From contig JASFUW010000002.1 of assembly GCA_050050135.1 (NCBI GenBank), forward strand, positions 1 through 34,852: a stretch of 34,852 nt of DNA, given 5' to 3'. The notes beneath the pieces were generated by a model that saw only the letters and a program-made list of their open reading frames with translations, was not told the origin of the DNA and ran no database searches. Position numbers and translations under genes: made by a program. Shown here in pieces: positions 5,339 through 21,500 of the stretch; within the stretch, counting starts at the first letter, position 1, and each line of letters begins with the position of its first letter. This DNA comes from Phycisphaerae bacterium (lineage in GTDB: Bacteria; Planctomycetota; Phycisphaerae; UBA1845).

Positions 5339-5341
5339 GAT

Positions 5342-6400: not shown

Positions 6401-6409
6401 GATGCCGAT

Positions 6410-7180
6410 TCAACTCCACACTTTCCACGGAGCGCGGCCCGACTGCCACATGACCTCGAGCAGGTGCTTTTCGCGCAGGGTGTCCATGCACTGCCAGAAG
6501 GAGTCATGCTTGTAGGCCATCAACTGCCCGTCCGCGGCGAGTCGTTCCAATGGCTCCTGTTCCCACTGCGTTTCGTCGCCCTCGATGTAGTCGAAGACCT
6601 GTGGTTCGAGGACGAAAAACGCTCCGTTGATCCAACCTTCGCCGAGTTGGGGTTTTTCCTCGAACAGGACGACGCGATCGCCGTCGAGGGTGAGTCGGCC
6701 GTACCGGGCCGGAGGTCGCACGGCCGTGAGTGTTGCGAGTTTTCCGTGCGAGCGGTGAAACTCGACGAGCCGATTGATGTCGAGGTTCGATACACCGTCG
6801 CCCCAGGTCAGCATGAACGTGGAGTCTCCCAAGAAGGGAGCCAAGCGCTTGATGCGTCCGCCGGTCATGGTGTCGAGGCCGGTGTCGACGAGGTCGACGG
6901 TCCATTCCGGTCTTTCGCCGTCGTGGACGGTGACGTGGGCCTTTCTCAAGTTCACGGTGAGGTTGCTGCTGAGTGAACAGTAGTCGACCATGTATCGCTT
7001 GATGACGTCGCCCTTGTAGCCGAGCGCGATCACGAACTGGTCACACCCGAAGTGGGCGTAGTGCCTCATGATATGCCAGAGGATGGGCCGTCCACCGATT
7101 TCGACCATCGGCTTGGGCTTGATCTCGGTTTCCTCGGCGAGCCGGGAACCCTTACCTCCTGCAAGTATGGCTACCTTCAT
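6410..7180 (-). CDS. rfbF: Glucose-1-phosphate cytidylyltransferase
   Basis: The sequence reads MKVAILAGGKGSRLAEETEIKPKPMVEIGGRPILWHIMRHYAHFGCDQFVIALGYKG...GGRIKR...WQCMDTLRE. The 256-aa length matches RfbF. The ATG at 7180 is preferred over the 60-aa basic extension in the track ORF. Confidence 0.9.
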   Translation of the reverse strand: MKVAILAGGKGSRLAEETEIKPKPMVEIGGRPILWHIMRHYAHFGCDQFVIALGYKGDVIKRYMVDYCSLSSNLTVNLRKAHVTVHDGERPEWTVDLVDTGLDTMTGGRIKRLAPFLGDSTFMLTWGDGVSNLDINRLVEFHRSHGKLATLTAVRPPARYGRLTLDGDRVVLFEEKPQLGEGWINGAFFVLEPQVFDYIEGDETQWEQEPLERLAADGQLMAYKHDSFWQCMDTLREKHLLEVMWQSGRAPWKVWS

Positions 7181-7271
7181 TCGTGTGACCTTCGTCGAAT
7201 GTCTCTTGCGCCCGTTCGCACGGGTGTTTGATTCCAATTCGCTTTGGCGCTTTTTTGTCGAGCCTTTTGCG

Positions 7272-8381
7272 TCAGACGCTCGCCAGCACTTTGACGATCC
7301 GCTCGGCTGCGTGACCGTCCCACAGGTCGGGGATTTGCGCGTCCCGTTGCGGGTTGTCACGGGCGGCGCGGTAACCGGCGAGAATGGCTCGGGGATCGGA
7401 GCCGGTCAGTCGGTTCGTTCCCTGCGTCACGGTGATCGGTCTCTCGGTGTTCTCCCGCAGCGTCAGGCAGGGTACACCGAGCACGGTCGTTTCCTCCTGG
7501 ATACCGCCTGAGTCGGTGAGGACCACGGCTGCTTCCGCCATGAGCTTGACGAAGTCCAAGTACCCGAGCGGCTGAATCATTCGCAGGGTCTTATCCTGTT
7601 CGACTCGGGAGAGCAGGTTCAAGCTGCGGAGATTGCCGGTCGTTCTGGGATGGGCGGGGAAGACGACGGGCATGTCGGTGCCGACCTGCTGAAGCGCGTC
7701 GAGGATGCCGGTCATCACGTTGGGGTCGTCGACGTTGCTCGGTCTATGTAGCGTGACAAGTGCAAAGCACTTGCTCTTTAGACCCAACGAGTTCAGCACA
7801 TTGGACTCGTCCGCTTTTGCGCGATGGCGGAGAAGCGTGTCCACCATGACGTTTCCGACGAGGTGGACCTTGCCGTCGGTGACGCCTTCGCGTCTGAGGT
7901 TCTCGACGCCGCTCGGTTCGGTGGCGAGCAGAACGTCGCTGACGCAGTCGGTGACCACGCGGTTGATCTCCTCGGGCATTGATCGATCGAAGCTTCGGAG
8001 CCCCGCTTCGACGTGGGCGACGCGAATGCCCAGCTTGGTGGCAACGAGGGCGCCGGCCATGGTGCTGTTGACGTCGCCGACGACGATGACCCAGTCGGGG
8101 CGGTGCTCGACACAAACGGGTTCGAGACGTTTCATAACCTCGGCGGTTTGCGCGGCGTGGGTACCGCTGCCGACCTCGAGATTCACGTCCGGCTCTGGGA
8201 TGCCCAGCTCGTCGAAGAACAGGCGGCTCATGTTGGCGTCGTAGTGTTGGCCGGTGTGGACGAGCAGGGTCTCGGCGGTTCCCGCTTCCGATAACGCGTG
8301 CACGACGGGTGCGACCTTCATAAAATTGGGGCGGGCCCCGCAGACGCACATGTAGAGCGGTTTTGTTCTGTCGGATCTCAT
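7272..8381 (-). CDS. wecB: UDP-N-acetylglucosamine 2-epimerase (non-hydrolysing)
   Basis: The sequence contains GARPNFMKVAPV...VHTGQHYD...GSGTHAAQTA...VVGDVNST...HVEAGLRSFDRSMPEEINR...TDSGGIQEE, which are canonical WecB motifs. Confidence 0.92.
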   Translation of the reverse strand: MRSDRTKPLYMCVCGARPNFMKVAPVVHALSEAGTAETLLVHTGQHYDANMSRLFFDELGIPEPDVNLEVGSGTHAAQTAEVMKRLEPVCVEHRPDWVIVVGDVNSTMAGALVATKLGIRVAHVEAGLRSFDRSMPEEINRVVTDCVSDVLLATEPSGVENLRREGVTDGKVHLVGNVMVDTLLRHRAKADESNVLNSLGLKSKCFALVTLHRPSNVDDPNVMTGILDALQQVGTDMPVVFPAHPRTTGNLRSLNLLSRVEQDKTLRMIQPLGYLDFVKLMAEAAVVLTDSGGIQEETTVLGVPCLTLRENTERPITVTQGTNRLTGSDPRAILAGYRAARDNPQRDAQIPDLWDGHAAERIVKVLASV

Positions 8382-8384
8382 GCC

Positions 8385-9344: not shown

Positions 9345-10378
9345 CGGTCGACCCCCACGACTCCACCGGGTCCGTACTGTTTCTCGTAGTAGGTGAGGTA
9401 CTCGCGGCTCTTGATTCGCTTCCACCAGGATTCGTTGGTCTTGTACCATTCGATCGTTTCGGCGAGTCCGTGGTCGAAGTCGATCCGCGGTTGCCAGCCG
9501 ATCTCTTCGGTGAGCTTCGAGAAGTCCATGGCATATCGGCGATCGTGGCCGGGCCGATCGCGGACGTATTGGATCATCGATTCGTCGTGGTCGAGCACGG
9601 AGAGCATGCGGCGGGCGATCTCGATGTTGGGGCGTTCGCAGTCGCCGCCGATGTTGTAGACGCTCCCCGCGGCGGCGCGCAGAAGGACCTGAAGGATGGC
9701 TTCGCAGTGATCGGTGACGTGGATCCAGTCCCGGACGTTCAACCCGTCACCGTAGAGCGGGACCTTCTTACCTTCTATCAAGTTGGTCGCGAAGAGCGGG
9801 ATCAGCTTCTCGGGAAACTGATAGGGACCGTAGTTGTTCGAGCAGCGGGTGATCACCACGTCCATCCCGAAGGTGGCGTGGTAGGCGGTCACGAGGAGGT
9901 CGGCGGCGGCCTTTGAGGCGGCGTAGGGGCTGTTCGGGGCAAGCGGGGTCCGCTCGGTGAATCGCCCGGTGGGGCCCAGGGACCCGTAGACCTCGTCGGT
10001 GGAGACTTGGAGGAAGCGGGACACGCGGTGCTCGCGGGCCAAATCGAGAAGAATCTGCACCCCCACCACGTTGGTGCGGACGAAGTCCTGGGCTCCGAGG
10101 ATGCTGCGATCAACGTGGCTTTCGGCTGCGAAGTTGACGATTGCGTCGACTCCATCCTGGAACACGGGTGTCAAACTTTCGGCATCGCAGATGTCCGCGC
10201 GAACGAAGCGGCACCTGGCGTCGGCGGCACAGTCTTCAAGGTTTTCGAGGTTGCCGGCATAGGTAAGGGCGTCGAGGGCGACAACGCGAACGCGGTCACG
10301 CTGATCCAAGAGCAACCGGACGAAGTTGCTGCCGATGAAGCCGGCTGCCCCCGTGACGAGGATGGTCGAATCCCGCAT
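9341..10378 (-). CDS. rfbB: dTDP-glucose 4,6-dehydratase
   Basis: The sequence reads MRDSTILVTGAAGFIGSNFV...DALTYAGNLENL...FAAESHVDRS...STDEVYG...PYAASKAAADLLV...RPGHDRRYA. The ATG at 10378 is preferred over the TTG at 10399. Confidence 0.92.
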   Translation of the reverse strand: MRDSTILVTGAAGFIGSNFVRLLLDQRDRVRVVALDALTYAGNLENLEDCAADARCRFVRADICDAESLTPVFQDGVDAIVNFAAESHVDRSILGAQDFVRTNVVGVQILLDLAREHRVSRFLQVSTDEVYGSLGPTGRFTERTPLAPNSPYAASKAAADLLVTAYHATFGMDVVITRCSNNYGPYQFPEKLIPLFATNLIEGKKVPLYGDGLNVRDWIHVTDHCEAILQVLLRAAAGSVYNIGGDCERPNIEIARRMLSVLDHDESMIQYVRDRPGHDRRYAMDFSKLTEEIGWQPRIDFDHGLAETIEWYKTNESWWKRIKSREYLTYYEKQYGPGGVVGVDR

Positions 10379-10779
10379 GTTCGGTTCGTTCACGTGCAAA
10401 GCGCGAATCCTATAACCTGAGTGTTTGTCCAGGCGCGCGCGGCGGCCAAGGTCGCGAAGACTCGATGCGTGGTTTGTCGTGGTCTTTCCAGACTCCGTCC
10501 CCGTCAGTTGCGCACAAAAACTGCGCGTAACCTACTGCAAAAACGATACTTATAGCGAATCCCCGGTCACCGGACACTCGATTCGCCGTTTGAATCGGAT
10601 GCCCGAAAACGCAAGCGTCAATACGCCTGCGCCCCCGTTGTTTGCGTCGTGGAGCGCTCGGCTCCCGCGATCTAGTCAGCCTCGAGGGCGTTGCATCAAG
10701 CCCTGCCGCGTCGTACGACCGCACTCCGGCTTTCGCCTAAGGACTGATCGGTTTTCCTTGGCGCACCTGTGAGCGGATG

Positions 10780-10797
10780 ATCCCGGCGCGCCGGGAT
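10780..10797. repeat. Perfect palindrome aTCCCGGCGCGCCGGGAt (copy 1), followed by TTTTGCGTTT
   Basis: Read directly from the sequence. The 16-bp core is at 10781-10796. The 18-bp palindrome includes the flanking a and t. A T-run follows on the + strand. Confidence 0.9.
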
Positions 10798-11470
10798 TTT
10801 GCGTTTCGGCCCGCCTGGTGGAACCCGCCGCGCGCCCCGGTCGCGGCCGGTGTCCGGTAAGCCCGTCGGTGGCGGTCAACGACGAGACCACTCGACCGCG
10901 CAAGCCCGAGACATCGGGATGGGACGTGAAGTACGATTGCCCATCCGCGCGGGTCCGGCCCGACCTGGGCTGGCGGGACGGGGCGCCGGTCCCGACACCG
11001 GGATCGACCCATAACTCGGTCCGCGCGGTCCACGTTATTCTAGCTCGCCCTATTGGACGTGCAAGCGACGGTTGCTGGCTGCCGAACGAACCGCGGGCGG
11101 GTTCCCTCCGAGGGACTCGTTCGGCGCCCGGCAAGGGCGGGGCACGACGGATGTCTGTCTCCGGAACGCGCCGTTCCGGGTGCCAGCGGTACTCGGACCT
11201 TTCGCGTTCTACCCAAACATCCCGTGTTCACAGCTCACGCATGGGCAGCCCGATAAGTCCACTCCGAGGACGTACCTTATCGCTCCCCGCTGCGGGTTCT
11301 CGGATGTCGGCAGGTTCTTGCATTGACCCCCGCCATAACCCGGATACAGTTAGGTACTGAGTTTGGGCCAACCCGCCCCGTTTGGGGACGGTCATTCGAG
11401 CAGGGTTGGTCTGCGCGAGTTCGGTGGGGGGTGACACCAGTCTTGCGCTCAGTTCGTGCCTTTCCTTGGT

Positions 11471-11486
11471 TCCCGGCGCGCCGGGA
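11471..11486. repeat. Perfect palindrome TCCCGGCGCGCCGGGA (copy 2)
   Basis: Read directly from the sequence. There are 54 nt between it and the ATG at 11541. Confidence 0.9.
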
Positions 11487-11540
11487 GAGCATGGTTTCGG
11501 TGCGTTGTGGACCGAGATTCACCTGGGGTGGGGTCTGCGG

Positions 11541-13487
11541 ATGGACTGGCTGATTCTGGCTGGAAGCGCAGGTGACGAGACGTCGTGGGCGCGTGACGTG
11601 CCGCGACACCTGCTGCCGCTTCCGGGCACGACGCTGCTCGAGTCGTTGCTGGCGCATATGCACTCCGCCTCGTCGGGTGCGGGCACGTGCACGATCTGTG
11701 TCAACGGTCATACGGAGTGGATCACGCCGTGCGCTGAGCGTTTTCAGTCGGCGACGTTCGAGGTCGGTGTCCTGGAAGACAGCCTTCCCCTGGGCACGGC
11801 CGGTTGCCTTAAGAGCTGTCAGGACCGCCTGAACGGCAACACCGTGTTCGTGACGGGCGGTTCCGTATGGTTCGAGGACGATCCGCGATGGATGCTCGAG
11901 CAGCACCGGACACAGGGCAATGCGCTGACCGTGTTTTGCACCGTCGATTCGAACTTGTCGAACGGCAAACAGCGCACGGTGCTCAGCCCCGCGGGCATCT
12001 ACTGTTGCGAACCGGATGTCCTCGACCACATTCCGGAAGTCGGGTATCAGGATCTGAAAGAGCAATTGGTGCCGGCGCTTCGTCATGCCGGGTTGCGTGT
12101 CGGGGCGGTGTCACTTCGCCGGCCGGCTTGCCAGGTATCCGACTGGCGAAGCTATATGCATGTGCTGCATCGGATTCTCTCGACGGGGCAATTTCCGCTA
12201 GGCGGTTATGATGAAATCGCGCCCGGTATCTGGCGTGGTCGGGACGTGAGCATCGCGGAGGATGCGCGGATCGTGGGTCCGGCACTTCTGGGTCATCAGT
12301 CGCGGATCGAGCCCGGGGCGGTTGTAGTCGGTCCTGCCATGTTGGGGGACCGGGCACAGGTCGGCGCGGGATCCTGGCTTATTCGCGTCATCGCCCCGGA
12401 GGACAGCCGCAGCCCCGCGGGCATGTCGTTGACCGACCAATTCGTCCCGGAGCTTCGCCTCGGGGCGTTGCCGCTGGCGGAGGGCCCGGGCACGGGTCCG
12501 TTGAAACCGCGAACGGAGGCACGCTCGCCACACCTGGGTCCTGAGAACCCCAAAGGGTCTCGAGTCGGCAGCCCGGCGGCGGCGAAATGGCTCTCGGTTG
12601 CGGCGATCGTCGCAACTTTTGCGTGGGCGTTTTGGGACACACTCGGGGGACTATGGCACGTGTGGCGGACCGATGGCGATTACAGCGCCGGTCAGATCGT
12701 TCCGTTGGCTGCCGCCTACATGCTCGCAGCCCGACGCAACCGGCTCAAGAGACTGAAACTACGCTTTGCACCGTTGGGACTGGCCATTTTCGGGGCCGGT
12801 TTCGCGATGAATCTTTTCGGTGCGTATTACCTGTACTCATCGCTCGAGAACCTGGGCATGGGCATCTGCCTGAACGGTCTGGTGTTGATGCTAGTCGGTT
12901 GGCGGGGGTACCGTCGCATCTGGTATCCGATGGTCTTTCTGTTTCTGACGCTCCCGCTGCCGCACCGTTTCCATGACCTGATTCTGCTGCCGTTGCAGGG
13001 CATCGGCGCGCGGATTTCAGCGAGCATCCTGGAGATCGTGGGGATACCGGCCGTGCGGGCCGGGCATGTTTTAGAAGTGGCCGGGCACCGTATCGCGGTC
13101 GCAGAGGCGTGCAGCGGACTGCGAATGGCCGTGGCGTTTCTCATCGTGACGGCTGTCTTCGCCTATTTCATCCGGCGTCCGCGGTGGCAGAAAATCATCG
13201 TTGTTCTCTCGAGTCTTCCGATCGCCGTGCTCTGCAACGTGGGTCGGATCGTGGTTGCGGCTTGTCTGTACACCGCGGGGCATGGATGGGCGGCGCGTGG
13301 GGCATTCCACGACATGACCGGGCTGTTGATGGTCCCGGCGGCGTTGGCGTTGGTCTGGCTCGAATTGTGGATATTATCGTGCGTGGTCATGCACACTCCG
13401 AGCGCGCCGAAAGCGGTGACCGCCCTGGTTGACCAGATGGACCGCCGGGTGGCGGGCGCGAAAGGCAGCGCAAACAGCCCGGCGTAG
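11541..13487 (+). CDS. Fusion protein: degenerate NDP-sugar pyrophosphorylase-like domain plus left-handed beta-helix, joined to an exosortase (EpsH/Xrt family)
   Basis: The N-terminal part reads MDWLILAGSAGDETSW...LLPLPGTTLLESL...PLGTAGCLK...VTGGSVWFEDD, followed by hexapeptide repeats IAEDARIVGPALLGHQSRIEPGAVVVGPAMLGDRAQVGAGS. The C-terminal part is polytopic and carries the exosortase signatures AEACSGLRM (Cys 13110-13112), CNVGRIV (Arg 13245-13247) and AFHDMTGLL (His 13308-13310). It is a single frame with no internal stop. The ATG at 11541 is preferred over the track start at 11382. Confidence 0.85.
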   Translation: MDWLILAGSAGDETSWARDVPRHLLPLPGTTLLESLLAHMHSASSGAGTCTICVNGHTEWITPCAERFQSATFEVGVLEDSLPLGTAGCLKSCQDRLNGNTVFVTGGSVWFEDDPRWMLEQHRTQGNALTVFCTVDSNLSNGKQRTVLSPAGIYCCEPDVLDHIPEVGYQDLKEQLVPALRHAGLRVGAVSLRRPACQVSDWRSYMHVLHRILSTGQFPLGGYDEIAPGIWRGRDVSIAEDARIVGPALLGHQSRIEPGAVVVGPAMLGDRAQVGAGSWLIRVIAPEDSRSPAGMSLTDQFVPELRLGALPLAEGPGTGPLKPRTEARSPHLGPENPKGSRVGSPAAAKWLSVAAIVATFAWAFWDTLGGLWHVWRTDGDYSAGQIVPLAAAYMLAARRNRLKRLKLRFAPLGLAIFGAGFAMNLFGAYYLYSSLENLGMGICLNGLVLMLVGWRGYRRIWYPMVFLFLTLPLPHRFHDLILLPLQGIGARISASILEIVGIPAVRAGHVLEVAGHRIAVAEACSGLRMAVAFLIVTAVFAYFIRRPRWQKIIVVLSSLPIAVLCNVGRIVVAACLYTAGHGWAARGAFHDMTGLLMVPAALALVWLELWILSCVVMHTPSAPKAVTALVDQMDRRVAGAKGSANSPA

Positions 13488-13512
13488 AGTTGCCGGGTTT
13501 AGGGGGTCGTCG

Positions 13513-14199
13513 GTGCAACACACAAGAACCAGCCTGATCGGATTGACGGTTGTGATCCTGCTTTTCACGGGGATGACGCAGCGGTGGGTGCGCGTGACAC
13601 GGGCTTCCCAGGCGTCGATGCAGACCCCGTTGCGACAGCCGCTATCGCAGATTCCAGCCAATATCGGAACGTACCGGCTTCGAGGCGAGATTCCGCTGGA
13701 CACCGATGTGCTCCGGGCGGCGAACGTGGACCATTACGTGAACCGGGTATACGAGGACTCGGTCACGGGGCATCAGGTGTTCCTCTACGTCGGGTATTGG
13801 GGGACCGAGGCGGCGGGCATGGGCCATGGTCCGGACGTTTGCTACCCGGCTGTGGGATGGCGATCGGAAGGCGAGCCGAGCGGCCGGGCCGTCAGGTCCG
13901 GGAGCGGGCTCGATCGGTTCGGCGCGACCATCATGCTGCACCGGTTCTCGCACGCAGAACCGGAGGGCATCGCGCGACGGTGCGTCGGATTCGTGGCGGT
14001 GGTCAGCGGCGAGTTTGTCGGCTCGTCACGGGGGATGTTCTGGCACACCCCGCGCAGGGACGGGCACGAGGGCGGACACTACCTGGCGCAGGTTCAGGTG
14101 GCGTCAGCGGTTCCCGACGAGAAGTGGGAGAACGCGGAGTCCGAGATTGTAAGCTTCATGGAGGCGCTTCTGCCGCACACGGCTGAGTGCTTACCATAG
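13513..14199 (+). CDS. epsI: EpsI family exosortase-associated protein
   Basis: It has an N-terminal TM segment (LIGLTVVILLFTG) followed by PANIGTYRL...LDTDVLRAANVDHYVNRVY...VFLYVGYW...GHGPDVCYPAVGW, the EpsI pattern. The GTG at 13513 is preceded by AGGGGG at 13501-13506. Confidence 0.8.
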   Translation: MQHTRTSLIGLTVVILLFTGMTQRWVRVTRASQASMQTPLRQPLSQIPANIGTYRLRGEIPLDTDVLRAANVDHYVNRVYEDSVTGHQVFLYVGYWGTEAAGMGHGPDVCYPAVGWRSEGEPSGRAVRSGSGLDRFGATIMLHRFSHAEPEGIARRCVGFVAVVSGEFVGSSRGMFWHTPRRDGHEGGHYLAQVQVASAVPDEKWENAESEIVSFMEALLPHTAECLP

Positions 14200-14229
14200 G
14201 TGTTTTGGGCGCAACAGCGGCCAGGCGGA

Positions 14230-14245
14230 TCCCGGCGCGGCGGGA
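14230..14245. repeat. One-mismatch copy of the palindrome (TCCCGGCGCGgCGGGA)
   Basis: Read directly from the sequence. There are 16 nt between it and the ATG at 14262. Confidence 0.7.
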
Positions 14246-14261
14246 CGAGTGGGTTGAGTGA

Positions 14262-16439
14262 ATGTCAGAGGTGAAGCCAATAACGGTATCTCCGTATTCG
14301 CCACCGACGAAATTCTCGGGCGTGGAGCGCGAGCCTCCGCATGAGTCGCTGGTGGTGGCGCTTGTCCAACGGTGGCGGGCCGTGCTGCTCGTGGCGCTGG
14401 TGGCGGGGGCCATCTCGGTGCCGGCGGTTTGGTTTACCATACGTCCAGCCTATAAGGTCACGAGCCGGGTGAAGATTGTCCCCGTGGTGCGGCCTATCCT
14501 GTTTTCGGACCAGGATACGGATATTTCACGTCATTACGCGGTCTATGTCGCTACCGAGATGGCCGCGATGACAAGCCCCTCGGTGATCAATGCGGCGCTG
14601 GACCTTCCCGAGATTGCGTCGCTGCCGTGGGTCCGGACGTCGGTCGATCCCGTGTCCGACATCCAAGACGCGCTCTCCGTAGAATCCGTAAAGCGCACCC
14701 AGTTGCTCGCTGTTTCGATGGTCGGGCAACATCCGGAAGACATGGCAAGGATCGTCAACGGCGTGTTGAGCACGTATCTTCGTCGCCATGAGGACCGAAA
14801 GCGTCAGTGGGACGAGACGATCCTCGAGTCGCTTCGCGCCGAAGAGAGCCAGCTCGAGGCGAAGCTGGAAGCCAAGGGCGTTCAGCTCTACCAGACGGCC
14901 GTCGACCGCGGACTGGGGATGGCCCAAGAATCGGGCATGATGCTCGAGACCTGGATGAGCGAAGTCCAAGGGCTGTTGACGCAAGCCAATAAGGAGCGTG
15001 CGCTTGCGGAAGCGAGACTGAAGAGCATCAAGGCCAGTGACGAGGGCCCGGACTCCGCGGGCGTAGAGACGGCCGACCTGCGTGGTCTGCGTGACTTTGT
15101 CGCCACCGACCCGGAACTGAACAGCCTGCAAGGCCAACTCCAGAAGGCGGAGCTGTCGGTGCTGGATGACGACCGCCTGGGTCGAGGCCCGAGCCATCCG
15201 GATGTCACGGGACGCAACGAACTGATCGCGACGTTGCGGGACCGAATCGATGAGCGGCGTGAGGCCGTCGCGGAAGCCTATCGGGCGGAGGAGCGCCGCC
15301 GCCTCGAGTCCGAGATTCGGGAAGCGCAACTCAGCGCCCAGGTCTTTCGGGAGGAACTCGACAAGCTGATGCAACAGCGGGTCGGCGTGGTCGGACAGAA
15401 ATTCGAGGTCGAAAACCTGCTTCACGAACGGGAACAGCTCGAACACGCGTTGAGCCAGGTGCGGCAAAAGATCTGGAACGTCACGGTTGAGCAGCGCCGG
15501 GCTGCTCGCATCACGATCGAGTCGCTCGCGGATGCGCCGAAAGCACCGAACATCGACAACCGGCCGAAGTACTGCGCCGCCGCCGCCCTGATGAGCCTGT
15601 TTTTGGGTCTGGGGGCAGGATTGGTGCGGCATCGTTTGGACACCAGCTTCCGTCACCCCGAGCAGGTGACAGAGCGACTCGGGATGCGTGTGTTGGGTAC
15701 GGTGGCTGACGTCGGACCCGCTCGTCCCGTCGATCTTGTCGTGGATCAGCGTTTCTCGGAGCCGATCCGGGGCATTTCCGCCGCCCTGCTGGCCGATTCG
15801 ACGAAATCGCAACGGGAGTCGGGTCACTCGCGGCTGATCACCAGCCCGACGCGGGGCACGGGTAAGTCGTCGATGTCGATGAACCTCGCGCGAAGCCTGG
15901 CGGCGACGGGCCGGAAGGTGCTGCTGGTCGACGGTGACAACCACGGCCGCGGCGTGACGCGACGGTTGGACCTTTCGGGCAAACAGGGCCTGCGAGAACT
16001 GCTCACGGGGACGGCGACCCCGGACGAGGTGACCTGTTCGGACCCCGGTTCGTCTGGACTTGGCGGGATGCACGTGATCCCGGCGGGGGCACCGGACGGA
16101 CCCGGCATGCCTGGATTCGGTGAGCTGGTCGGTCGTCGCGGCGCGCAGGGGCGGCTGAAAGATCTGTTCAAGTCGTATGACGAGGTGATCGTTGATTCAC
16201 CGCCGGTGCTGGCGAAAAGCGATACGGTCATCCTGGCGACGCTGGTCGACGAGGTGGTCCTGGTTCTGCGCGCCGACCGTTCGACGCGTGAGGAGGCACA
16301 GGACGCTCAACAAGACCTTGCCGCCGTGGGCGCCCGGGTCGTCGGCGTGGTGTTGAACGCGGTCAACCCGAAGAACACACGGCGTGGGTATGGGTACAGT
16401 TACGGGTATACCTACGCCCACACGGAGGACGAAGCGTGA
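14262..16439 (+). CDS. Polysaccharide chain-length determinant (Wzz/GumC-like) fused to a BY-type tyrosine autokinase
   Basis: It has an N-terminal TM segment plus a Wzz-like region and a long coiled coil. It has Walker A SPTRGTGKSS, A' LLVDGDNHGRG, Walker B VIVDSPPVL and a C-terminal Tyr cluster RRGYGYSYGYTYAH. Confidence 0.9.
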   Translation: MSEVKPITVSPYSPPTKFSGVEREPPHESLVVALVQRWRAVLLVALVAGAISVPAVWFTIRPAYKVTSRVKIVPVVRPILFSDQDTDISRHYAVYVATEMAAMTSPSVINAALDLPEIASLPWVRTSVDPVSDIQDALSVESVKRTQLLAVSMVGQHPEDMARIVNGVLSTYLRRHEDRKRQWDETILESLRAEESQLEAKLEAKGVQLYQTAVDRGLGMAQESGMMLETWMSEVQGLLTQANKERALAEARLKSIKASDEGPDSAGVETADLRGLRDFVATDPELNSLQGQLQKAELSVLDDDRLGRGPSHPDVTGRNELIATLRDRIDERREAVAEAYRAEERRRLESEIREAQLSAQVFREELDKLMQQRVGVVGQKFEVENLLHEREQLEHALSQVRQKIWNVTVEQRRAARITIESLADAPKAPNIDNRPKYCAAAALMSLFLGLGAGLVRHRLDTSFRHPEQVTERLGMRVLGTVADVGPARPVDLVVDQRFSEPIRGISAALLADSTKSQRESGHSRLITSPTRGTGKSSMSMNLARSLAATGRKVLLVDGDNHGRGVTRRLDLSGKQGLRELLTGTATPDEVTCSDPGSSGLGGMHVIPAGAPDGPGMPGFGELVGRRGAQGRLKDLFKSYDEVIVDSPPVLAKSDTVILATLVDEVVLVLRADRSTREEAQDAQQDLAAVGARVVGVVLNAVNPKNTRRGYGYSYGYTYAHTEDEA

Positions 16440-16570: not shown

Positions 16571-18295
16571 ATGCTGTTTATCCACTTCGGCACGGAATTC
16601 GGAATCCCGATAGCGGTCGGGAGCGGTGACGGGGCGTCGGCTTCGCCGGCAGCGCTCTCGCCGGAACGTGCGCGCCTCATTGACTCCTATTGTCGGTGGG
16701 CGTCGGAGCGCGCGGCCCCCCCGCTTGCTCTGTTGCCCAGCTCACAACGAGACGCGCTCGGGCCGATGTTGGATGAGCTCCCGCACGTTTCCCCGGCGTG
16801 GTATAGCGAGGAAGGCGTTTCGGCCCCGCCGCAGTTGCGAAGGGGTGAGCGAATCTGGATCGTGAACGGAAAGCACCTGCCAATCGTCGATTGGCACGCC
16901 GCGCGGTCGGCCGTCCGCCGTCATGACACGGAAGTGCTCATCTTCAGCTCATCCAACTCCGCACAGCGACAATATTCGGAGTCCGTGCTGGTCAGTGAAA
17001 CGGGTGAGGTCGTGAAGTTCAAGCGTCACTACTGCGACTCACCGGGGTTTACGGACTTGTGGAACGGCGAAGCTTCGTTGCTCGTGGCGTCGCGGGAGCG
17101 GGCACAGGCTGTCCTAAGCCACATGCTGACACGCGGATGGGGGTTGGAAAGCGTCGGTGCGTTGATCCGGCGGTTCAGCGTTCAGTGGTCGTCGGCGCCG
17201 TGCGTGCTGTCTGAGTTCGGGGTCGTGTCCCCGTTCTGGCCCGGCTCGCCGGGAGAAGAGCGGGCGGTGAATGCAGCCGACCGTTCAAATTCGGACGGTT
17301 CGGGTTTTCCTGGTTCGCTGAGTCTGGCTATGGAGGTACTTAGAAACGATGTCCAGCCGGGCACGCGGCGAGCGGTGGATCTTCCGGACCACGGGGGCAA
17401 CGGAGTGGGCTGGCATGGGCAGGAGACGCCTGTAGTCTCGGATCGCCATCGAACGGATGCCGACGCATCTGGAGGCGCAGCGTTTGATCCCGGCCTGAGG
17501 AGCCTGCTGCCTGACCGATACGAGGAGCCCTGGGAAGACGACGATGACGAGCCCGATCCCCTCGAGACGTACGCCGATTCGGTCGCGCCGGGATCCGACC
17601 TGGCGTATTTCTTCGCTAAGCGGACAATCGACATCTTCGTCTCGGCGTCGGGGCTGCTGCTGCTCTCGCCGCTGCTCGTGGTCGTGGCACTTCTAGTCAA
17701 GTTGACGTCGCCCGGGCCGGTGTTTTTCGGGCACCCGAGGCAGGGGAAGGGCGGCAAGGAGTTCCGTTGTCTCAAGTTCCGATCGATGCGTCAGGACGCC
17801 AGCGCCCTCCAGGACCAGCTCCGCAGCCAGAACCAAGTCGACGGACCACAGTTCAAAATCGACAACGACCCGCGCGTCACGAAAATCGGCCCGTGGCTCA
17901 GGCATTACAACATCGACGAGCTGCCGCAACTGATCAACGTGCTGCTGGGGCAGATGAGCCTGGTTGGACCGCGGCCCTCACCCGATAACGAAAACCAACT
18001 CTGCCCGGCCTGGCGACGGACGCGTCTTTCGGTCAGACCCGGGATCACGGGGCTGTGGCAGGTTCTGAGGCTCCGAAACCCGAACGCCTCGGATTTTCAG
18101 GAGTGGATCTATTACGACGTCGAGTACGTCCGTCACCGGTCACCCTGGCTCGATTTTCAAATCCTCCTCCACACGCCGGTCGCGATGTTCGCGGCGCGGC
18201 GCCTCACGGCGTTCGCCGAGCGTCTGGAGCGTCATGGTATCTGCACGCGGGCGGCCGCGCTTCGCCGACATTACGAAGGTCTGACCAACCGATAA
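16571..18295 (+). CDS. Priming sugar transferase (monotopic polyprenyl-phosphate glycosyl-phosphate transferase) with a ~340-aa atypical soluble N-terminal region
   Basis: The C-terminal part reads AKRTIDIFVSASGLLLLSPLLVVVALLVKLTSPGPVFF...RCLKFRSM...KIDNDPRVTKIGPWLRHYNIDELPQLINVLLGQMSLVGPRP...RPGITGLWQV (Bac_transf pattern; the Asp-Glu dyad is at 17915-17920). The N-terminal region has no TM segment and is followed by an acidic linker (EEPWEDDDDEPDP). Confidence 0.88.
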   Translation: MLFIHFGTEFGIPIAVGSGDGASASPAALSPERARLIDSYCRWASERAAPPLALLPSSQRDALGPMLDELPHVSPAWYSEEGVSAPPQLRRGERIWIVNGKHLPIVDWHAARSAVRRHDTEVLIFSSSNSAQRQYSESVLVSETGEVVKFKRHYCDSPGFTDLWNGEASLLVASRERAQAVLSHMLTRGWGLESVGALIRRFSVQWSSAPCVLSEFGVVSPFWPGSPGEERAVNAADRSNSDGSGFPGSLSLAMEVLRNDVQPGTRRAVDLPDHGGNGVGWHGQETPVVSDRHRTDADASGGAAFDPGLRSLLPDRYEEPWEDDDDEPDPLETYADSVAPGSDLAYFFAKRTIDIFVSASGLLLLSPLLVVVALLVKLTSPGPVFFGHPRQGKGGKEFRCLKFRSMRQDASALQDQLRSQNQVDGPQFKIDNDPRVTKIGPWLRHYNIDELPQLINVLLGQMSLVGPRPSPDNENQLCPAWRRTRLSVRPGITGLWQVLRLRNPNASDFQEWIYYDVEYVRHRSPWLDFQILLHTPVAMFAARRLTAFAERLERHGICTRAAALRRHYEGLTNR

Positions 18296-18533
18296 TGGAC
18301 TAGTGCTGTTTCCGGAAAGAAACTTCGAAATCCGGGTGGCGTTCCGGCACGCCGGGGTCGCAGCCGAGCCGTGATTGGCCCGAACCATGGCCTGCCCCTT
18401 CGGGTCTGACCATGCCACCCGAACTTGACTTCCGTTGCTGAATGCGGCACCAGGTTCGGCCCGACCGTGTTTTGCGGAAGCCGCCGGTTTGCTCCGGCTG
18501 CCGCTGGTCTGTGATCGAAAACGAGACGAGAGC

Positions 18534-21500
18534 GTGGCGGAAACTCAAACGACCCCAACACGAGGACGCGTTCGCATCGGCGGCATCGTCGTGGTCGCCG
18601 TGCTGTTGGTGTCTGCGGGGGTTGCGGCGTACGTTCGCCATACCTATCAGAAAGAAGCGAACACGGTCAAGCTGCTCCGCCAGGCGCGGGAGGCGGAGGA
18701 ACAGCGCGACCTCAAGGCGGCGTCCACGTACTACCGGCTTTATTTGAAGCGGCGTCCTTCGGATGCTTCTGCGTTGGCGGACTACGCGTCGGTGCTCAAC
18801 ACGCGGATGGTGTCCCAAGGCGCCGGGACCGAGCTGGTGGGGGACGTTTTGGGCACGCTCCGGAGACTCGTACGGCTGGAACCGGGGAACGTGGAGGCGC
18901 TGGGGCGATTGGCGACGCTGTATCTGCAAGTGGGTGATTACTCGCTGGCAGAACAGCACGCCCGCGGTTGGCTGACGCAGGCGCCGGACTCGGTTGACGC
19001 GGCGCTTTGTCTGGCCCGGGCACGTCGGGCGCTGCTTCGTTTCGATGAAGCGGCGGCGGGTCTGGTCGACGCGATCGAGACGACACCGGAGCACCCGCCG
19101 CTGTATGCGCTGCTGATCGAGTTGCTGTCGACGAATCTGGATCGGCCGCAGGAGGCAGCGGCGTGGGTCACCAAGGCGGTGCGACGCCATCCGGAGTCCT
19201 ACGAGGTCCACCTTGCCGCGTCAGCATTCTACAAGCGCCAGCGGTCGTACTCGGGGGCGGACGACGCGGCGGAGGTTCATCTGGAACGTGCGTTGGCGTT
19301 GGCGCCGCAGAATGTCGATGTGCTCGTCCCGGCTGTGTTGACCTATATAGCCCAGGGACGACTTTCGGACGCGAAGGAGCTGCTCGACGATGCCATGGAT
19401 GTGGCACCCGAATCGGCGCGGTTGACGGCGGCGCGGGCCAAGTGGGCCGTCAGAACGAATGACCCGAAGGAGATGACGGCGCTGGCTGAAGAACTGACCA
19501 CCGGGGGCGACCCGAGCGCGCCGGGCGGGCTGGATCGTCTCGCTCAGGCTGCGGAGCTGTTCCTTCGGGCGGGCGACAGCGACGCGGCGGACCGGTGCAT
19601 CGAGCGGCTCGCGAGCCCCGGTGCGGGGGGACTCCACGTTTCCGGCCCGTTGCGGACGCGACTCGACGTGCTGCGCGGAGCCCGACTGATTGCCATCGGC
19701 GAGCCGTTTGCCGCGATGCCGTTTCTTGAGCGCGCCCTCGTTCGGGCTGGTCCGTTCTCCTGGGCTGCGGAACTGCTCGCGATCGCCCATATGCGAACCG
19801 GCGCGATCGAGACAGCGGTCGACATCTACGAGCAGATTCTGTTGTCTGCCCCGGATGAAGTTGCGATCGCCGCGACCCTGGCGTGGATCGAGATCGAGCT
19901 CGGGCGATACCAAGAGGCGCGAAGACACGCGCAGCACGTGGGCGACGCCGGCGGCGCCTTCCGGCGCCAGGCCCGGTTGCTTCTCGCGGCGTGTGACCTG
20001 GGGGAGGCAAGCCGAGATGCGGACGCCGACCTGCTTGCCGCGGCGAAGGTGACCCTCGAAGCCCTGCTCGAGCAGGAACCGGAGGACGCCACCGCAATCG
20101 GGTTGCTCGCCGAATCGTTCGTGGGGCTCGGGCAGACGCAGCGGGCCGTCGAAACGGTGATGGAGTCGCCCGTGGATGACGAGCGCAAGGCGGCGCTGGT
20201 GCTGGAGGTGGGCCGCGGATTGCTCGACCGGGAGCTGGTGGAGCCTGCCGAAGCGTTGGCTTTGGAAGCGACGCGGCGGTTCCCGACGGCGGCGGCCGGG
20301 CACGAATTACTCGTGTACGTGTTGGCGACAACGGACCGGGTGTCCGAAGCTGCCGGACATATCGCTGCAACTGAATTGGCGGACCGGGCGAAGGGCCGCC
20401 TCTGGGAGATCATCAGCCGCGCTCAGTTCGCGTCCGAGCAGACGCAGACGGCGACCGAGACGCTTCGCCGGGCGGTCGCGCTTCAACCTACGAACGTTCG
20501 TGCCCGGCAAGCGCTGCTCCGACGGACGCCCGATCTGTCTGAAGCCAGACGACTCATCGACGAGATTCGTGCGATCGAAGGTAGTGAGGGTTTGGTCTGG
20601 CGCTTCGAACGGGCGTGGCTTTCGCTCGAGCGTGATCGCATGGCCGGTCGGGTGGAAGAAGCCATCGAGTTGCTGAAACGCTGCCTCACGGTCCGCCCCG
20701 GATGGATCGCCGCACGACTTCTGCTCGGATACGCGAACGAGGTGTCGGGCAATCTCGAGGAGGCTGCGGACGCCTATCGGAACGCGATCGCCCAGCATCC
20801 GAGGCTCGGCAAGAGCCAGGCGGCGATCCGTCTGGTTCGGGTCTTGCGGCAACTCGGTGACTACTTCGAGGCTGACAACCTGCTGGCATCCATCGCGGAT
20901 GCGATCGGGAACGGTGAGCGCGATCCGGTCGCCGCGGGAGCGCGGCGGACGCGCGATGTGACCTCGGAAAACCGGTCTGATTTGCTCCGCCTTCAGACCG
21001 AACGACACCTCCGGCGGCACGAACTGGAATCGGCGGCGGAGACGGCGGGGCAGCTTCTCGCGCTGCGCAAGGACGACCCCGCGTGGGCCGCACTGACGGT
21101 GGAACTCTGGCTTCGTGCGGGCAACCTGGCGGAGGCTCAGCGCATTGCGCTTGCCACGCTGGAAGCACACCCGGACGTCCCCGCCCTGCTCTGGGCGTAC
21201 GCTCGGGTGCTCATCCGCAGGGATCGAGCGGAGGAGGCGGAGTCGATGGTGCGTGCCATTGCGATGCGTCTCGAACGGGCGTCGCATTACCTTCTGCTCG
21301 CGCAACTGCTGACGCGTCTGGAGAAACACGAGGAAGCGGAGCGGGCCATCGCCCGTGCGATGGAACTGGAGCCGAACAACGCATCGGTGTTCAGCGCCTG
21401 CGCGAAGTTCTGGGGGTCGCGAGGCGACTTCGCGAAGCAGCTTGCGCTGACGCGTCGGGCTGTCGAGCTGCGCGGGGAGGACCCGGGAGCATCACTCGCC

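What the first reader, a model, noticed from the sequence alone, without database searches (positions are those of the whole stretch)
11541..13487. Exosortase fused to a catalytically degenerate sugar-nucleotidyltransferase/LbH domain
One uninterrupted frame joins two modules, and I see no in-frame stop or plausible internal start across the 12400-12600 junction. The first module is about 330 aa with the fold pattern of NDP-sugar pyrophosphorylases (LLPLPG..., PLGTAGCLK, VTGGSVWFEDD) plus hexapeptide/left-handed beta-helix repeats. The second is a polytopic exosortase carrying the Cys/Arg/His signature (AEACSGLRM, CNVGRIV, AFHDMTG). The nucleotide-binding G-loop is degenerate. The canonical LAGGxGTRL reads LAGSAGDET (11556-11582), so the phosphate-contacting Arg is Glu. 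This argues for a ligand-sensing or scaffolding pseudo-enzyme rather than an active pyrophosphorylase. The fusion physically couples a sugar-nucleotide-like binding module to the protein-sorting transpeptidase of an EPS locus. I know of EpsI-exosortase fusions but cannot recall this architecture. It could gate protein sorting on precursor availability.
Basis: partly seen in the sequence, partly recalled or inferred. Interest (0 to 1): 0.75.

Follow-up and report, generated by a model that had tools for sequence, protein, structure and literature searches.

The report
Exosortase fused to pseudo-pyrophosphorylase module
A real, conserved Phycisphaerae membrane protein joins a probably non-catalytic copy of a sugar-nucleotide-making enzyme to a protein-sorting exosortase; relatives of that copy sit, standalone or fused, beside the enzyme that starts exopolysaccharide synthesis in hundreds of bacterial species, which hints that protein sorting and polysaccharide initiation are physically linked.

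Summary
Window 11541-13487 (+) is one uninterrupted 648-aa gene. It has a GMPP/CugP-like NTP-transferase plus left-handed beta-helix module (aa 1-300), a variable disordered linker (aa 301-345) and an exosortase with its Cys/Arg/His residues. About 80 protein clusters at 30-68% identity, two of them on complete MAG chromosomes, keep the same fusion, so it is not an assembly artefact. The catalytic signature is degenerate across the family: GxGTR becomes Gx[E/D], the Mg-binding Asp becomes Ser/Ala, and a sugar loop is deleted. The nucleotide-base pocket is kept.

The proposed role, gating exosortase on precursor supply, is only partly supported. The N-module belongs to a large unnamed family (364 clusters at E<=1e-30; at least 212 species). 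Its members normally stand alone next to, or are fused to, the priming phosphoglycosyl transferase (Bac_transf), often with a chain-length/tyrosine-kinase gene. Within the fusion clade the module survives where the exosortase is truncated, absent, or has lost its catalytic Cys.

Best reading: a GMPPA-like regulatory or scaffold subunit of the EPS-initiation machinery that became tethered to the exosortase. No curated model or searchable paper describes it. It is a new variant of known kinds, of moderate to high interest.

The parts
11323..11350 (+). Sigma-70-like promoter TTGACC-16 nt-TACAGT for the fusion gene and probably its operon
   Evidence: It is the only such site in 10380-11600, where 0.0 are expected from shuffles. 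Both hexamers are conserved in three relatives whose fusion proteins are about 68% identical (L004, L085, L086).
11355..11540 (+). Conserved, probably structured 5' leader. Two hairpins lie at 11365-11448, and a 3' stem pairs with the start-codon region.
   Evidence: The conserved blocks carry indels that are not multiples of 3. RNAalifold keeps 7 of 44 pairs through changes on both sides. Covariance model R1 finds only the four close relatives, plus a weak, position-consistent hit in L003 (E 0.23). MFE z-score is -2.0. This part is tentative.
11541..13487 (+). Fusion gene, 648 aa plus stop
11541..12206 (+). Cytoplasmic NTP-transferase-like (GT-A/Rossmann-like) domain, aa 1-222, with a degenerate catalytic signature. 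Degenerate G-loop 11556-11582; GTAG base-binding loop 11787-11813; GGSVW in place of xxDxx at 11850-11882; family signature GYQDLKEQLVP at 12042-12080.
   Evidence: Profile hits to GMPP/UGPase structures. AF2 model plus Foldseek. Column statistics. Residue mapping onto VTC1.
12207..12440 (+). Short left-handed beta-helix (hexapeptide) domain, aa 223-300
   Evidence: Pfam Hexapep E 6e-4. Family profile aligned to the LbH of 8x7s, GMPP and GlmU. The model shows a ladder of short strands at aa 224-298 with pLDDT 97-98.
12441..12575 (+). Variable, disordered linker, aa 301-345
   Evidence: Mean identity 11%. pLDDT below 50 for aa 307-344.
12576..13373 (+). Exosortase (EpsH-type polytopic membrane domain), aa 346-611. 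Catalytic Cys524 (nt 13110-13112), Arg569 (13245-13247), His590 (13308-13310).
   Evidence: Pfam PF09721 E 3.8e-54. TIGR02602 scores 146 bits against a cut-off of 105.6, and TIGR04178 57 bits against 23. Across the family, Arg528, Asn566 and Arg569 are conserved 72/72, His590 71/72 and Cys524 65/72.
13429..14199 (+). EpsI (DUF3485), the exosortase-associated protein, encoded as a separate gene
   Evidence: PF11984 E 1.8e-17. It lies immediately downstream of the fusion in most fusion loci.
14262..16439 (+). Polysaccharide co-polymerase / tyrosine autokinase (chain-length determinant fused to a P-loop kinase)
   Evidence: AAA_31 and CbiA. Below-cut-off similarity to TIGR01007, TIGR03018 and TIGR03007. 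It follows the fusion gene in every fusion locus where the contig allows.
16571..18295 (+). Monotopic priming phosphoglycosyl transferase. It has a soluble N-terminal domain (aa ~25-215), a single hydrophobic helix (aa 357-375) and a Bac_transf domain (aa 350-540).
   Evidence: PF02397 E 4e-62. Hydropathy. Homolog N-termini support the ATG at 16571 as the start. The N-domain model is poor (pLDDT 55), yet nearly all of the top 50 Foldseek hits are nucleotidyltransferase folds at weak E-values.
18435..22835 (+). Giant TPR protein, PrsT-like
   Evidence: TIGR02917 scores 222.9 bits, below its cut-off of 312. It is conserved downstream in L003, L085 and L086.

Best explanation
Shown. The gene encodes a conserved two-module inner-membrane protein of Phycisphaerae. 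The N-terminal module is cytoplasmic and GMPP-like (NTP-transferase + LbH). It has lost the PPi-binding Thr-Arg, the Mg-binding Asp and a sugar-binding loop, but keeps the nucleotide-base pocket. A flexible linker joins it to an exosortase that looks catalytically intact. The N-module is not a one-off capture. It belongs to a large unnamed family of non-canonical GMPP-like proteins found in EPS-initiation cassettes across several phyla. In those cassettes the module either stands alone next to the priming phosphoglycosyl transferase (PGT), often with the chain-length/tyrosine-kinase gene between them, or is fused to the PGT's N-terminus. That PGT usually carries its own paralogous N-terminal domain.

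Inferred. In Phycisphaerae the standalone gene fused with the neighbouring exosortase gene. An unfused arrangement, N-module-x-Xrt-EpsI-PCP-PGT, still exists in L038. The module most likely binds a nucleotide or NDP-sugar without turning it over. Like GMPPA/KONJAC with GMPPB/VTC1, or the nucleotide-sensing DUF of WbaP, it would act as a regulatory or scaffolding subunit of the PGT/PCP initiation complex on the cytoplasmic face, probably oligomerising through its LbH. The fusion would then tether the exosortase to that complex. Sorting of PEP-CTERM-type proteins would be co-localised and stoichiometrically coupled with polysaccharide initiation, rather than gated allosterically.
For: Fusion is real and conserved.

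Fold.

Family-wide loss of catalytic residues, with the base pocket retained: mapped onto the VTC1 residues described in PMC9168903. The acidic residue at position 80 and the G85-G88 loop are kept. R13 becomes E/D, K23 becomes R, D111 becomes S/A, D219 becomes E/Q, and the Asn173 loop is deleted.

Purifying selection: the N-module averages 49% identity, close to the exosortase's 54% and far above the linker's 11%.

A canonical sugar-nucleotide enzyme sits in the adjacent divergent operon. The glucose-1-phosphate cytidylyltransferase at 6410..7360 scores 370.9 bits against TIGR02623 (cut-off 300). The locus therefore does not need the module for catalysis.

Link to the PGT:
- 44 of 80 genome loci from the first scan carry N-module-Bac_transf fusions of about 585 aa.
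- The exhaustive search finds 364 clusters at E<=1e-30. Of the 141 newly returned proteins among the top 150 hits, plus the window protein, 126 are standalone, 10 are Xrt fusions and 6 are Bac_transf fusions.
- In the second scan (at least 212 species) about 65 of 80 loci, and nearly every locus whose contig extends far enough, read standalone module-(PCP)-[N-domain+Bac_transf]. An exosortase lies nearby in only 4.

The module outlives the exosortase within the fusion clade:
- L001/L002 keep the N-module, TM1 and the 'DYSAGQLVP' motif, then stop. They have no EpsI and run straight into PCP and PGT.
- L005, L007, L010 and L011 have a soluble module directly before the PGT, and they nest among fused forms in the NJ tree.
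- Seven clusters (P0060-P0069) have Cys524->Ala and FHD->LHG, lack EpsI, and still read fusion-PCP-PGT.

Precedents: LbH-mediated assembly of the inactive GMPPA with GMPPB, and of KJC with VTC1 (PMC9168903); the UMP-sensing non-catalytic DUF of WbaP (PMC10942596).
Against: - No binding, activity or interaction data exist for any member of this family. The mechanism rests on analogy and gene-fusion logic.
- The window's own PGT N-domain shows no detectable sequence similarity to the module (hhalign probability 2%). Only a low-confidence model hints at a nucleotidyltransferase fold, and it has no recognisable LbH. An LbH-mediated hetero-dimer is therefore unsupported in this particular clade.
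- The most conserved motif of the whole family (D171-x-K173-E174) maps onto the loop that holds the catalytically critical Glu195-Lys196 in VTC1. This could mean a retained, altered catalytic function.
- The NJ tree has no support values.
- 'Loss of exosortase' loci come from MAGs, where a second locus elsewhere cannot be excluded.
- No PEP-CTERM-type substrate was found in the window.
Confidence: 0.55

Rival explanations
1. The N-module is a ligand sensor whose occupancy by a sugar nucleotide allosterically switches the fused exosortase on or off, so that protein sorting is gated by precursor availability.
For: The fusion is covalent and conserved. The base-binding pocket is retained while the catalytic residues are lost. 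The exosortase triad is intact in 65 of 72 members.
Against: The module is retained where the exosortase is truncated, absent, or mutated Cys->Ala. Across the wider family its constant partner is the PGT, not an exosortase: only 4 of 80 standalone loci have Xrt nearby. The linker is 45 residues long, disordered and unconserved. The ligand site and the exosortase active site would lie on opposite faces of the membrane (topology model of Haft 2006, PMC1569441).
Confidence: 0.15
2. The N-module is an active enzyme with a non-canonical active site. It would be a nucleotidyltransferase or related phosphotransferase that makes or channels the donor substrate to the membrane machinery, as in the fused IPCT-DIPPS enzyme.
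For: Purifying selection is strong. The invariant K173-E174 pair sits in the loop equivalent to the catalytic Glu195-Lys196 of VTC1. The acidic residue at position 80 and the GTAG loop are conserved. N-terminal fusion to the PGT in many phyla would suit substrate channelling. An active nucleotidyltransferase fused to a membrane phosphotransferase exists (4mnd appeared among the fold hits).
Against: The PPi-binding Arg is replaced by an acidic residue. The Mg-binding Asp is never present in 72 fusion-clade members. The second Asp is changed and the sugar loop is deleted. The replacement residues differ between the X, S and B classes, which is unlike a conserved alternative active site. A canonical cytidylyltransferase is encoded next door.
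Confidence: 0.2
3. Artefact or decay: two genes joined by a frameshift or assembly error, or a fusion pseudogene with no function.
For: The junction is low-complexity and poorly conserved. The single-sequence Pfam hits for the N-module fall below the gathering thresholds.
Against: 72 full-length clusters from independent samples, including two closed MAG chromosomes, keep the same reading frame across the junction. Both halves are under purifying selection. The model is high-confidence.
Confidence: 0.01

Closest known systems
Exosortases (EpsH/XrtA family; nearest models XrtW, XrtD, XrtA) with EpsI
   Same: Polytopic EpsH-type domain with conserved Cys, Arg and His. The EpsI gene lies immediately downstream. 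The gene is embedded in an EPS locus with a chain-length/tyrosine kinase, a priming sugar transferase and a PrsT-like TPR protein.
   Different: No named Xrt subfamily model reaches its cut-off: XrtW 158 bits against 425, XrtD 155 against 400, XrtA 136 against 208. The protein carries a 300-aa cytoplasmic N-terminal domain. The fusions described by Haft 2006 are C-terminal EpsI and CAAX-protease-like domains only. The cognate sorting signal was not identified for this clade. A classic PEP-CTERM protein lies near the distant fusion in L084.
GMPPA/GMPPB and KONJAC/VTC1 (a non-catalytic paralog regulating GDP-mannose pyrophosphorylase)
   Same: Same two-domain fold, NTP-transferase + short LbH (Foldseek E 1e-14 to 1e-17). 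A paralog thought to be catalytically inactive keeps a nucleotide-sugar pocket and assembles with its partner through the LbH (PMC9168903). In most related loci there are two paralogous modules, one free and one on the PGT.
   Different: Only 15-19% identity. The partner here would be a membrane phosphoglycosyl transferase or its N-domain, not an active pyrophosphorylase. The G-loop is far more degenerate than in GMPPA. Binding and regulation are untested.
eIF2B gamma/epsilon
   Same: NTP-transferase + LbH pseudo-enzymes used as scaffold or regulatory subunits. They are significant profile and fold matches.
   Different: A eukaryotic translation factor, with no functional relation. This is a structural analogy only.
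Nucleotide-sensing DUF (PF13727) of large monotopic PGTs such as WbaP
   Same: A non-catalytic, Rossmann-like cytoplasmic accessory domain attached to the priming PGT, which senses a nucleotide (UMP) and modulates initiation (PMC10942596). The wider N-module family is fused to, or adjacent to, monotopic PGTs that lack that DUF.
   Different: A different fold family. In this window the module sits on the exosortase, not on the PGT.
IPCT-DIPPS (nucleotidyltransferase fused to a membrane phosphotransferase, PDB 4mnd)
   Same: A cytoplasmic NTP-transferase-fold domain fused N-terminally to an integral membrane enzyme (seen among the fold hits).
   Different: There the nucleotidyltransferase is catalytically active and feeds the membrane enzyme. 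Here the catalytic residues are missing and the membrane partner is a transpeptidase.

Membership tests
Exosortase (EpsH, PF09721 / TIGR02602) | Significant match to the family model above the curated cut-off | tested here: met
   PF09721 scores 184 bits (cut-off 25.7). TIGR02602 scores 146 (105.6). TIGR04178 scores 57 (23).
Exosortase (EpsH, PF09721 / TIGR02602) | Conserved catalytic Cys, Arg and His | tested here: met
   Cys524, Arg569 and His590 are present in the window protein. Across the family, Arg is 72/72, His 71/72 and Cys 65/72.
Exosortase (EpsH, PF09721 / TIGR02602) | Polytopic (about 8 TM) membrane topology | tested here: inconclusive
   Only a crude hydropathy scan was run. It shows about eight hydrophobic segments between aa 346 and 616. 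No dedicated topology predictor was used.
Exosortase (EpsH, PF09721 / TIGR02602) | Cognate C-terminal sorting-signal proteins (PEP-CTERM or a variant) in the same genome | not testable with these tools
   None among the window ORFs. The whole genome is not available. A classic PEP-CTERM protein lies 5 kb from the distant fusion in L084.
Named exosortase subfamilies (XrtA, XrtB, XrtD, XrtW, XrtV ...) | Score at or above the subfamily's curated cut-off | tested here: not met
   Best scores are XrtW 158 against 425, XrtD 155 against 400, XrtA 136 against 208 and XrtV 102 against 313.
Sugar-1-phosphate nucleotidylyltransferase (PF00483; GMPP/CugP branch) | GT-A/Rossmann-like fold followed by a C-terminal LbH | tested here: met
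   AF2 pLDDT 89. Foldseek matches 8x7s at E 5e-19 with TMq 0.74. Profile against PDB gives E 7e-31.
Sugar-1-phosphate nucleotidylyltransferase (PF00483; GMPP/CugP branch) | Pfam gathering score for the single sequence | tested here: not met
   PF00483 scores 18.4 bits against a cut-off of 21.2. Hexapep scores 19.9 against 27.
Sugar-1-phosphate nucleotidylyltransferase (PF00483; GMPP/CugP branch) | G-loop GxGTR(L) and the downstream Lys that bind the triphosphate/PPi (VTC1 Gly9, Thr12, Arg13, Lys23) | tested here: not met
   The window reads G8-S-A-G11-D12-E13 ... R22. Across the family, position 13 is E26/D21 of 72, and position 22 is R52/K8.
Sugar-1-phosphate nucleotidylyltransferase (PF00483; GMPP/CugP branch) | Catalytic/Mg-binding Asp residues (VTC1 Asp111, Asp219) | tested here: not met
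   Position 108 is S46/A23/C2/T1 and never D. Position 198 is E50/Q15.
Sugar-1-phosphate nucleotidylyltransferase (PF00483; GMPP/CugP branch) | Nucleotide-base recognition (acidic residue at 80 and the GTAG loop) | tested here: met
   D80 is D65/E6 of 72. G85 and G88 are invariant, and T86 and A87 are each 66/72.
Sugar-1-phosphate nucleotidylyltransferase (PF00483; GMPP/CugP branch) | Pyrophosphorylase activity | not testable with these tools
   Needs a biochemical assay.
XrtA/PEP-CTERM-type EPS locus | Exosortase + EpsI + chain-length/tyrosine kinase + priming sugar transferase + PrsT-like TPR protein in one locus | tested here: inconclusive
   All five gene types are present in order at 11541-22835. 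Every XrtA-system-specific model scores below its cut-off: TIGR03013 153 bits against 393, TIGR03018 91 against 231, TIGR03007 40 against 279, TIGR02917 223 against 312. PrsK/PrsR regulators were not seen in the window.
Unnamed 'N-module' family (non-canonical GMPP-like partner of monotopic PGTs), defined here | [YF]xD[LIV]KExL[IV]P motif, PxG(T/P)AGC loop, no GxGTR, no Mg-Asp, and genomic linkage to Bac_transf | tested here: met
   The window protein has all the sequence features and lies two genes upstream of Bac_transf. The family was delineated. The motif served as a search pattern, but it is equally conserved in the pattern-free HMM search.

The most novel reading that the evidence does not exclude
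The N-module family is a previously unrecognised bacterial class of pseudo-NDP-sugar pyrophosphorylases. Its members would act as GMPPA-like regulatory subunits of priming phosphoglycosyl transferases in Wzx/Wzy-type EPS pathways across Acidobacteriota, Gemmatimonadota, Nitrospirota and Planctomycetota. On this reading the Phycisphaerae fusion is a 'Rosetta stone' showing that the exosortase is a physical component of the EPS-initiation complex. That would be consistent with exosortase using a lipid-linked glycan made by that complex as the acceptor when it processes PEP-CTERM proteins.
Probability: 0.2. Interest if true: 0.85.

Novelty: new variant of a known kind. Interest (0 to 1): 0.6.

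Why it matters
Exosortases have been tied to exopolysaccharide loci since 2006. Haft et al. (2006) proposed their role in processing PEP-CTERM proteins from phylogenetic profiling and gene neighbourhood, not from any identified physical connection to the polysaccharide machinery.

This family supplies a covalent fusion between an exosortase and a cytoplasmic module. In hundreds of other genomes that module is fused to, or encoded next to, the priming phosphoglycosyl transferase. This turns the question into concrete experiments. Does the module bind the PGT or the tyrosine kinase? Which nucleotide does it bind? Does removing it uncouple protein sorting from EPS synthesis?

Independently of the exosortase, the work exposes a large, uncurated family of probable pseudo-pyrophosphorylases in EPS initiation cassettes. 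Its members presumably receive only generic names: the few source annotations seen here read 'exosortase' or 'NDP-sugar pyrophosphorylase family protein', and no curated model covers the module. The family offers a bacterial parallel to GMPPA/KONJAC regulation and to the nucleotide-sensing domain of WbaP.

Tried and rejected
- BLASTP and hhalign of the window PGT's N-terminal domain against the N-module found no similarity. I could not show that the window operon carries a second paralogous module.
- The AF2 model of that PGT N-domain was poor (pLDDT 55, 8-sequence alignment). Its Foldseek hits are nearly all nucleotidyltransferase folds but weak (E 4e-3 or worse). I treat this as a hint only.
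- Searches for PEP-CTERM-like tails among ORFs of the window and of 19 related loci found nothing convincing.
- Rfam (gathering thresholds) and tRNA scans of the window were empty.
- The covariance model of the 5' leader did not generalise beyond four close relatives.
- Literature searches found no paper on this architecture, and none on N-module-PGT fusions. The queries were exosortase + nucleotidyltransferase, exosortase + Phycisphaerae, PGT fusions, and exosortase fusions.
- The frameshift/assembly-join idea was rejected on comparative evidence.
- An acetyltransferase role for the LbH was considered and set aside. The LbH is short (about 75 aa) and aligns with the non-catalytic C-terminal LbH of GMPP/UGPase, not with the GlmU acetyltransferase core.
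No coordinates or multimer prediction were available to test the positions of pocket residues or docking.


Full report
1. The observation

Window 11382..13487 (+) is one open frame. The ATG at 11541 gives a 648-aa protein starting 'MDWLILAG'. This matches the N-termini of most homologs.

Pfam finds Exosortase_EpsH at aa 358-611 (E 3.8e-54). The N-terminal half gives only sub-threshold Hexapep and NTP_transferase hits. NCBIfam places the C-terminal half in the generic exosortase family (TIGR02602, TIGR04178). No named Xrt subfamily reaches its cut-off.

2. Is the fusion real?

A search of 5.8 billion proteins returned about 80 clusters at 90% identity with the same two-module architecture, at 30-68% identity. 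Where a source names them, they are called only 'exosortase', from Phycisphaerae or Planctomycetota MAGs. Seventy-two are full length.

Mean identity to the query is 49% for aa 1-300, 54% for the exosortase and 11% for aa 301-350. Both modules are therefore under purifying selection, joined by a free-evolving linker.

Two closed MAG chromosomes (CP070827, CP070744) and about 20 GTDB species representatives carry the same continuous gene. A frameshift or assembly join is excluded.

3. What the N-module is

A profile of the family hits solved structures of the GMPP/CugP branch of sugar-1-phosphate nucleotidylyltransferases:
- 8x7s UGPase, E 7e-31
- Leishmania GDP-MP, 1e-19
- Arabidopsis VTC1, 5e-18
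- human GMPPB, 1e-14
- GMPPA, 2.5e-9
- eIF2B epsilon and gamma

The AlphaFold model of aa 1-345 is confident (pLDDT 89.2, pTM 0.83) and disordered only at aa 307-344. Foldseek returns the same enzymes, with 8x7s at E 5e-19 and TMq 0.74. The fold assignment, NTP-transferase domain plus short LbH, is therefore secure.

4. Active-site status

I used the HMM alignment to VTC1 together with the residues described for VTC1 in PMC9168903. The table gives the mapping; family counts are.

| VTC1 role | VTC1 residue(s) | Window / family |
|---|---|---|
| PPi site | Gly9, Thr12, Arg13, Lys23 | S9, D12, E13, R22. Position 13 is E or D in 47 of 72; position 22 is R52/K8 |
| Catalytic Asp | Asp111 | S108 (S46/A23, never Asp) |
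| Catalytic Asp | Asp219 | Position 198, E50/Q15 |
| Mannose contact | Asn173, on a nine-residue loop | Loop deleted |
| Guanine contact | Acidic residue at 80 | D80 (D65/E6) |
| Guanine contact | Gly85 in the GTAG loop | G85 and G88 invariant |
| Catalytic loop | Glu195-Lys196 | K173-E174, invariant, order reversed |

The base pocket is kept, while the phosphate, metal and sugar sites are remodelled. This supports 'catalytically degenerate, probably still ligand-binding'. It does not prove inactivity.

5. The wider family: the main new result

First genome scan. I scanned one genome per GTDB species with the motif [YF]xD[LIV]KEQL[VI]P and classified the loci with local HMMs. Three architectures appeared:
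- X: N-module-exosortase fusion. 20 species: Phycisphaerae plus a deeper Planctomycetota clade, L047/L084.
- B: N-module-Bac_transf fusion of about 585 aa. 44 species: Nitrospirota, 'Deltaproteobacteria', Acidobacteriota, Brocadiaceae and some Phycisphaerales. NCBIfam confirms man1P-GTase-like plus EPS_sugtrans halves.
- S: standalone.

All three classes lack the canonical G-loop and the Mg-binding Asp.

Pattern-free search. An HMM search of 1.84 billion representatives found 364 clusters at E<=1e-30. Of the 141 newly returned proteins among the top 150 hits, plus the window protein, 126 are standalone proteins of 330-450 aa, 10 are X and 6 are B.

Second genome scan. In about 65 of the 80 loci retrieved, the order is standalone module, optionally a PCP/tyrosine-kinase gene, then a PGT of about 590 aa. 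Most of the remaining loci end too close to the module to tell. The N-terminal region of that PGT again matches the module's HMM, mainly its LbH part. An exosortase is nearby in only four loci.

No NCBIfam model covers the module in any of the three contexts.

6. Relation between the module and the exosortase

An unfused arrangement exists in L038: module-x-Xrt-EpsI-PCP-PGT. Several loci of the type S-PCP-PGT-Xrt-EpsI carry unfused exosortases that match the fusion-clade exosortase profile strongly (E 5e-94 to 3e-64).

In an NJ tree the Xrt-associated modules of Planctomycetota group apart from the PGT-fused ones. The tree has no support values.

Within the main fusion clade there is a series in which exosortase function is lost but the module stays in front of PCP/PGT:
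- Seven clusters (P0060, P0062, P0064-P0067, P0069) have the catalytic Cys replaced by Ala and FHD replaced by LHG. They have no EpsI gene, and still read fusion-PCP-PGT.
- P0078, found in two independent metagenomes (L001/L002), retains the module, TM1 and the first exosortase motif 'DYSAGQLVP', then ends. It has no EpsI.
- L005, L007, L010 and L011 have a soluble module directly upstream of the PGT, with no exosortase within 10 kb.

These observations argue that the module's primary function belongs to the initiation cassette, not to exosortase catalysis.

7. Locus context in the window

Downstream of the fusion gene lie:
- EpsI (13429..14199)
- a PCP/tyrosine autokinase (14262..16439)
- a monotopic PGT (16571..18295), with a soluble N-domain, one hydrophobic helix at aa 357-375 and a Bac_transf domain
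- a 1466-aa PrsT-like TPR protein

The same order is found in L003, L004, L085 and L086.

Upstream, on the other strand, is a sugar-nucleotide operon. It includes dTDP-glucose 4,6-dehydratase, RmlD, WecB, three C-methyltransferases and a glucose-1-phosphate cytidylyltransferase that scores above its curated cut-off. The locus therefore has a genuine pyrophosphorylase.

8. Mechanism

Shown:
- the architecture
- the family-wide pattern of residue loss and retention
- the genomic coupling to PGT and PCP
- persistence of the module without a functional exosortase

Inferred: the module is a non-catalytic, nucleotide- or NDP-sugar-binding regulatory or scaffold subunit of the initiation complex. The analogies are inactive GMPPA/KONJAC assembling with GMPPB/VTC1 through the LbH (PMC9168903), and the UMP-sensing DUF of WbaP (PMC10942596). 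Fusion to the exosortase would tether protein sorting to sites of EPS initiation.

I give this reading 0.55. It is disfavoured by the flexible linker, by the opposite membrane faces (topology model in PMC1569441) and by the degenerative series. A non-canonical active enzyme gets 0.2, kept alive by the invariant K173-E174 pair. Artefact gets 0.01.

9. Comparison with what is known, and novelty

Haft et al. (2006) describe exosortase fusions to EpsI and to CAAX-protease-like domains only. Full-text searches found no paper on exosortase-nucleotidyltransferase fusions, or on this module attached to PGTs.

The protein is a bona fide exosortase-family member outside the named subfamilies. Its N-module is a structural member of the NTP-transferase/LbH superfamily that fails the catalytic-motif tests.

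I rate it a new variant of known kinds. The most novel reading not excluded is a new bacterial class of pseudo-pyrophosphorylase regulators of PGTs, with the exosortase as part of the initiation complex. I put that at about 0.2.

10. Limits

- All of the evidence is comparative.
- The genomes are MAGs.
- The tree is a simple NJ tree.
- No coordinates were available to verify pocket geometry.
- No substrate signal was identified for this clade.
- The similarity between the window PGT's N-domain and nucleotidyltransferases rests on a low-confidence model.

Noticed in passing
window 11323-11540: The only sigma-70-like promoter in the 1.2-kb gene-free region is TTGACC-16-TACAGT at 11323-11350. It is conserved in three relatives and followed by a conserved leader of about 180 nt. 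The leader has two hairpins with compensatory changes, and a 3' stem that pairs with the start-codon region. It may act as a translational control element for the exosortase operon.
   Followed up: partly
window 10489-10555; L003 8152-8218; L010 6158-6221: A non-coding motif of about 65 nt (CAGACTCCGTCCCCGTCGGTTGC...AACCTACTGCAAAA...TTAT) is about 80% identical between loci whose fusion or N-module proteins are only about 50% identical. In L010 it lies 34 nt from the start of a minus-strand PCP gene. It may be a promoter or operator for the divergent operon, or a small RNA.
   Followed up: no
P0060, P0062, P0064-P0067, P0069; loci L170/L171 7762-9723: A sub-clade of the fusion family has the exosortase catalytic Cys replaced by Ala (VIEAAGGLRM) and FHD replaced by LHG. 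It lacks an EpsI gene but keeps the full-length fusion followed by PCP and PGT. This looks like a doubly 'dead' protein that is still conserved.
   Followed up: partly
L001 8001-9185 and L002 3171-4355 (P0078): A 394-aa remnant consists of the N-module, the linker, TM1 and the first exosortase motif 'DYSAGQLVP', then stops. It is found in two independent metagenomes, with PCP and PGT directly downstream and no EpsI.
   Followed up: partly
window 16571-17260: The PGT's soluble N-terminal domain (conserved core aa ~25-215) matches no Pfam or NCBIfam family and has only 8 homolog clusters. The public gene call starts 65 codons too late, as judged from homolog N-termini. The low-confidence model resembles nucleotidyltransferase folds.
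   Followed up: partly
window 11541-12206 (family alignment): The cytoplasmic N-module has an unusual number of conserved cysteines (C53, C89, C93, C133, C155, C156). C53 and C89, the latter directly after the GTAG loop, are also invariant in the standalone clade. A redox or metal role is possible.
   Followed up: no
window 403-10399 (minus strand): The divergent operon encodes RmlB, RmlD, WecB, an above-cut-off glucose-1-phosphate cytidylyltransferase, an epimerase, three C-methyltransferase-type proteins (Methyltransf_13/14) and a GT2. This suggests a C-methylated deoxy-sugar in the polysaccharide.
   Followed up: partly
window 24382-25425 (minus strand): A 346-aa ORF combines TPR repeats with two RNA polymerase alpha C-terminal domains (PF03118, E 1e-43). 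This is an unusual architecture and was not examined.
   Followed up: no
L084 10727-11287: A 186-aa secreted protein with a textbook PEP-CTERM tail (SPIPEPSTMFLLGLGVAVLRHGRKQ) lies 5 kb downstream of the distant N-module-exosortase fusion (P0085 clade). This indicates that at least that clade serves classic PEP-CTERM substrates.
   Followed up: partly
CP070744.1 (L012 and L053): One closed Phycisphaerales MAG chromosome carries both an N-module-exosortase fusion (L012) and, 1.8 Mb away, an N-module-Bac_transf fusion (L053). The two fusion types can therefore coexist in one genome.
   Followed up: no
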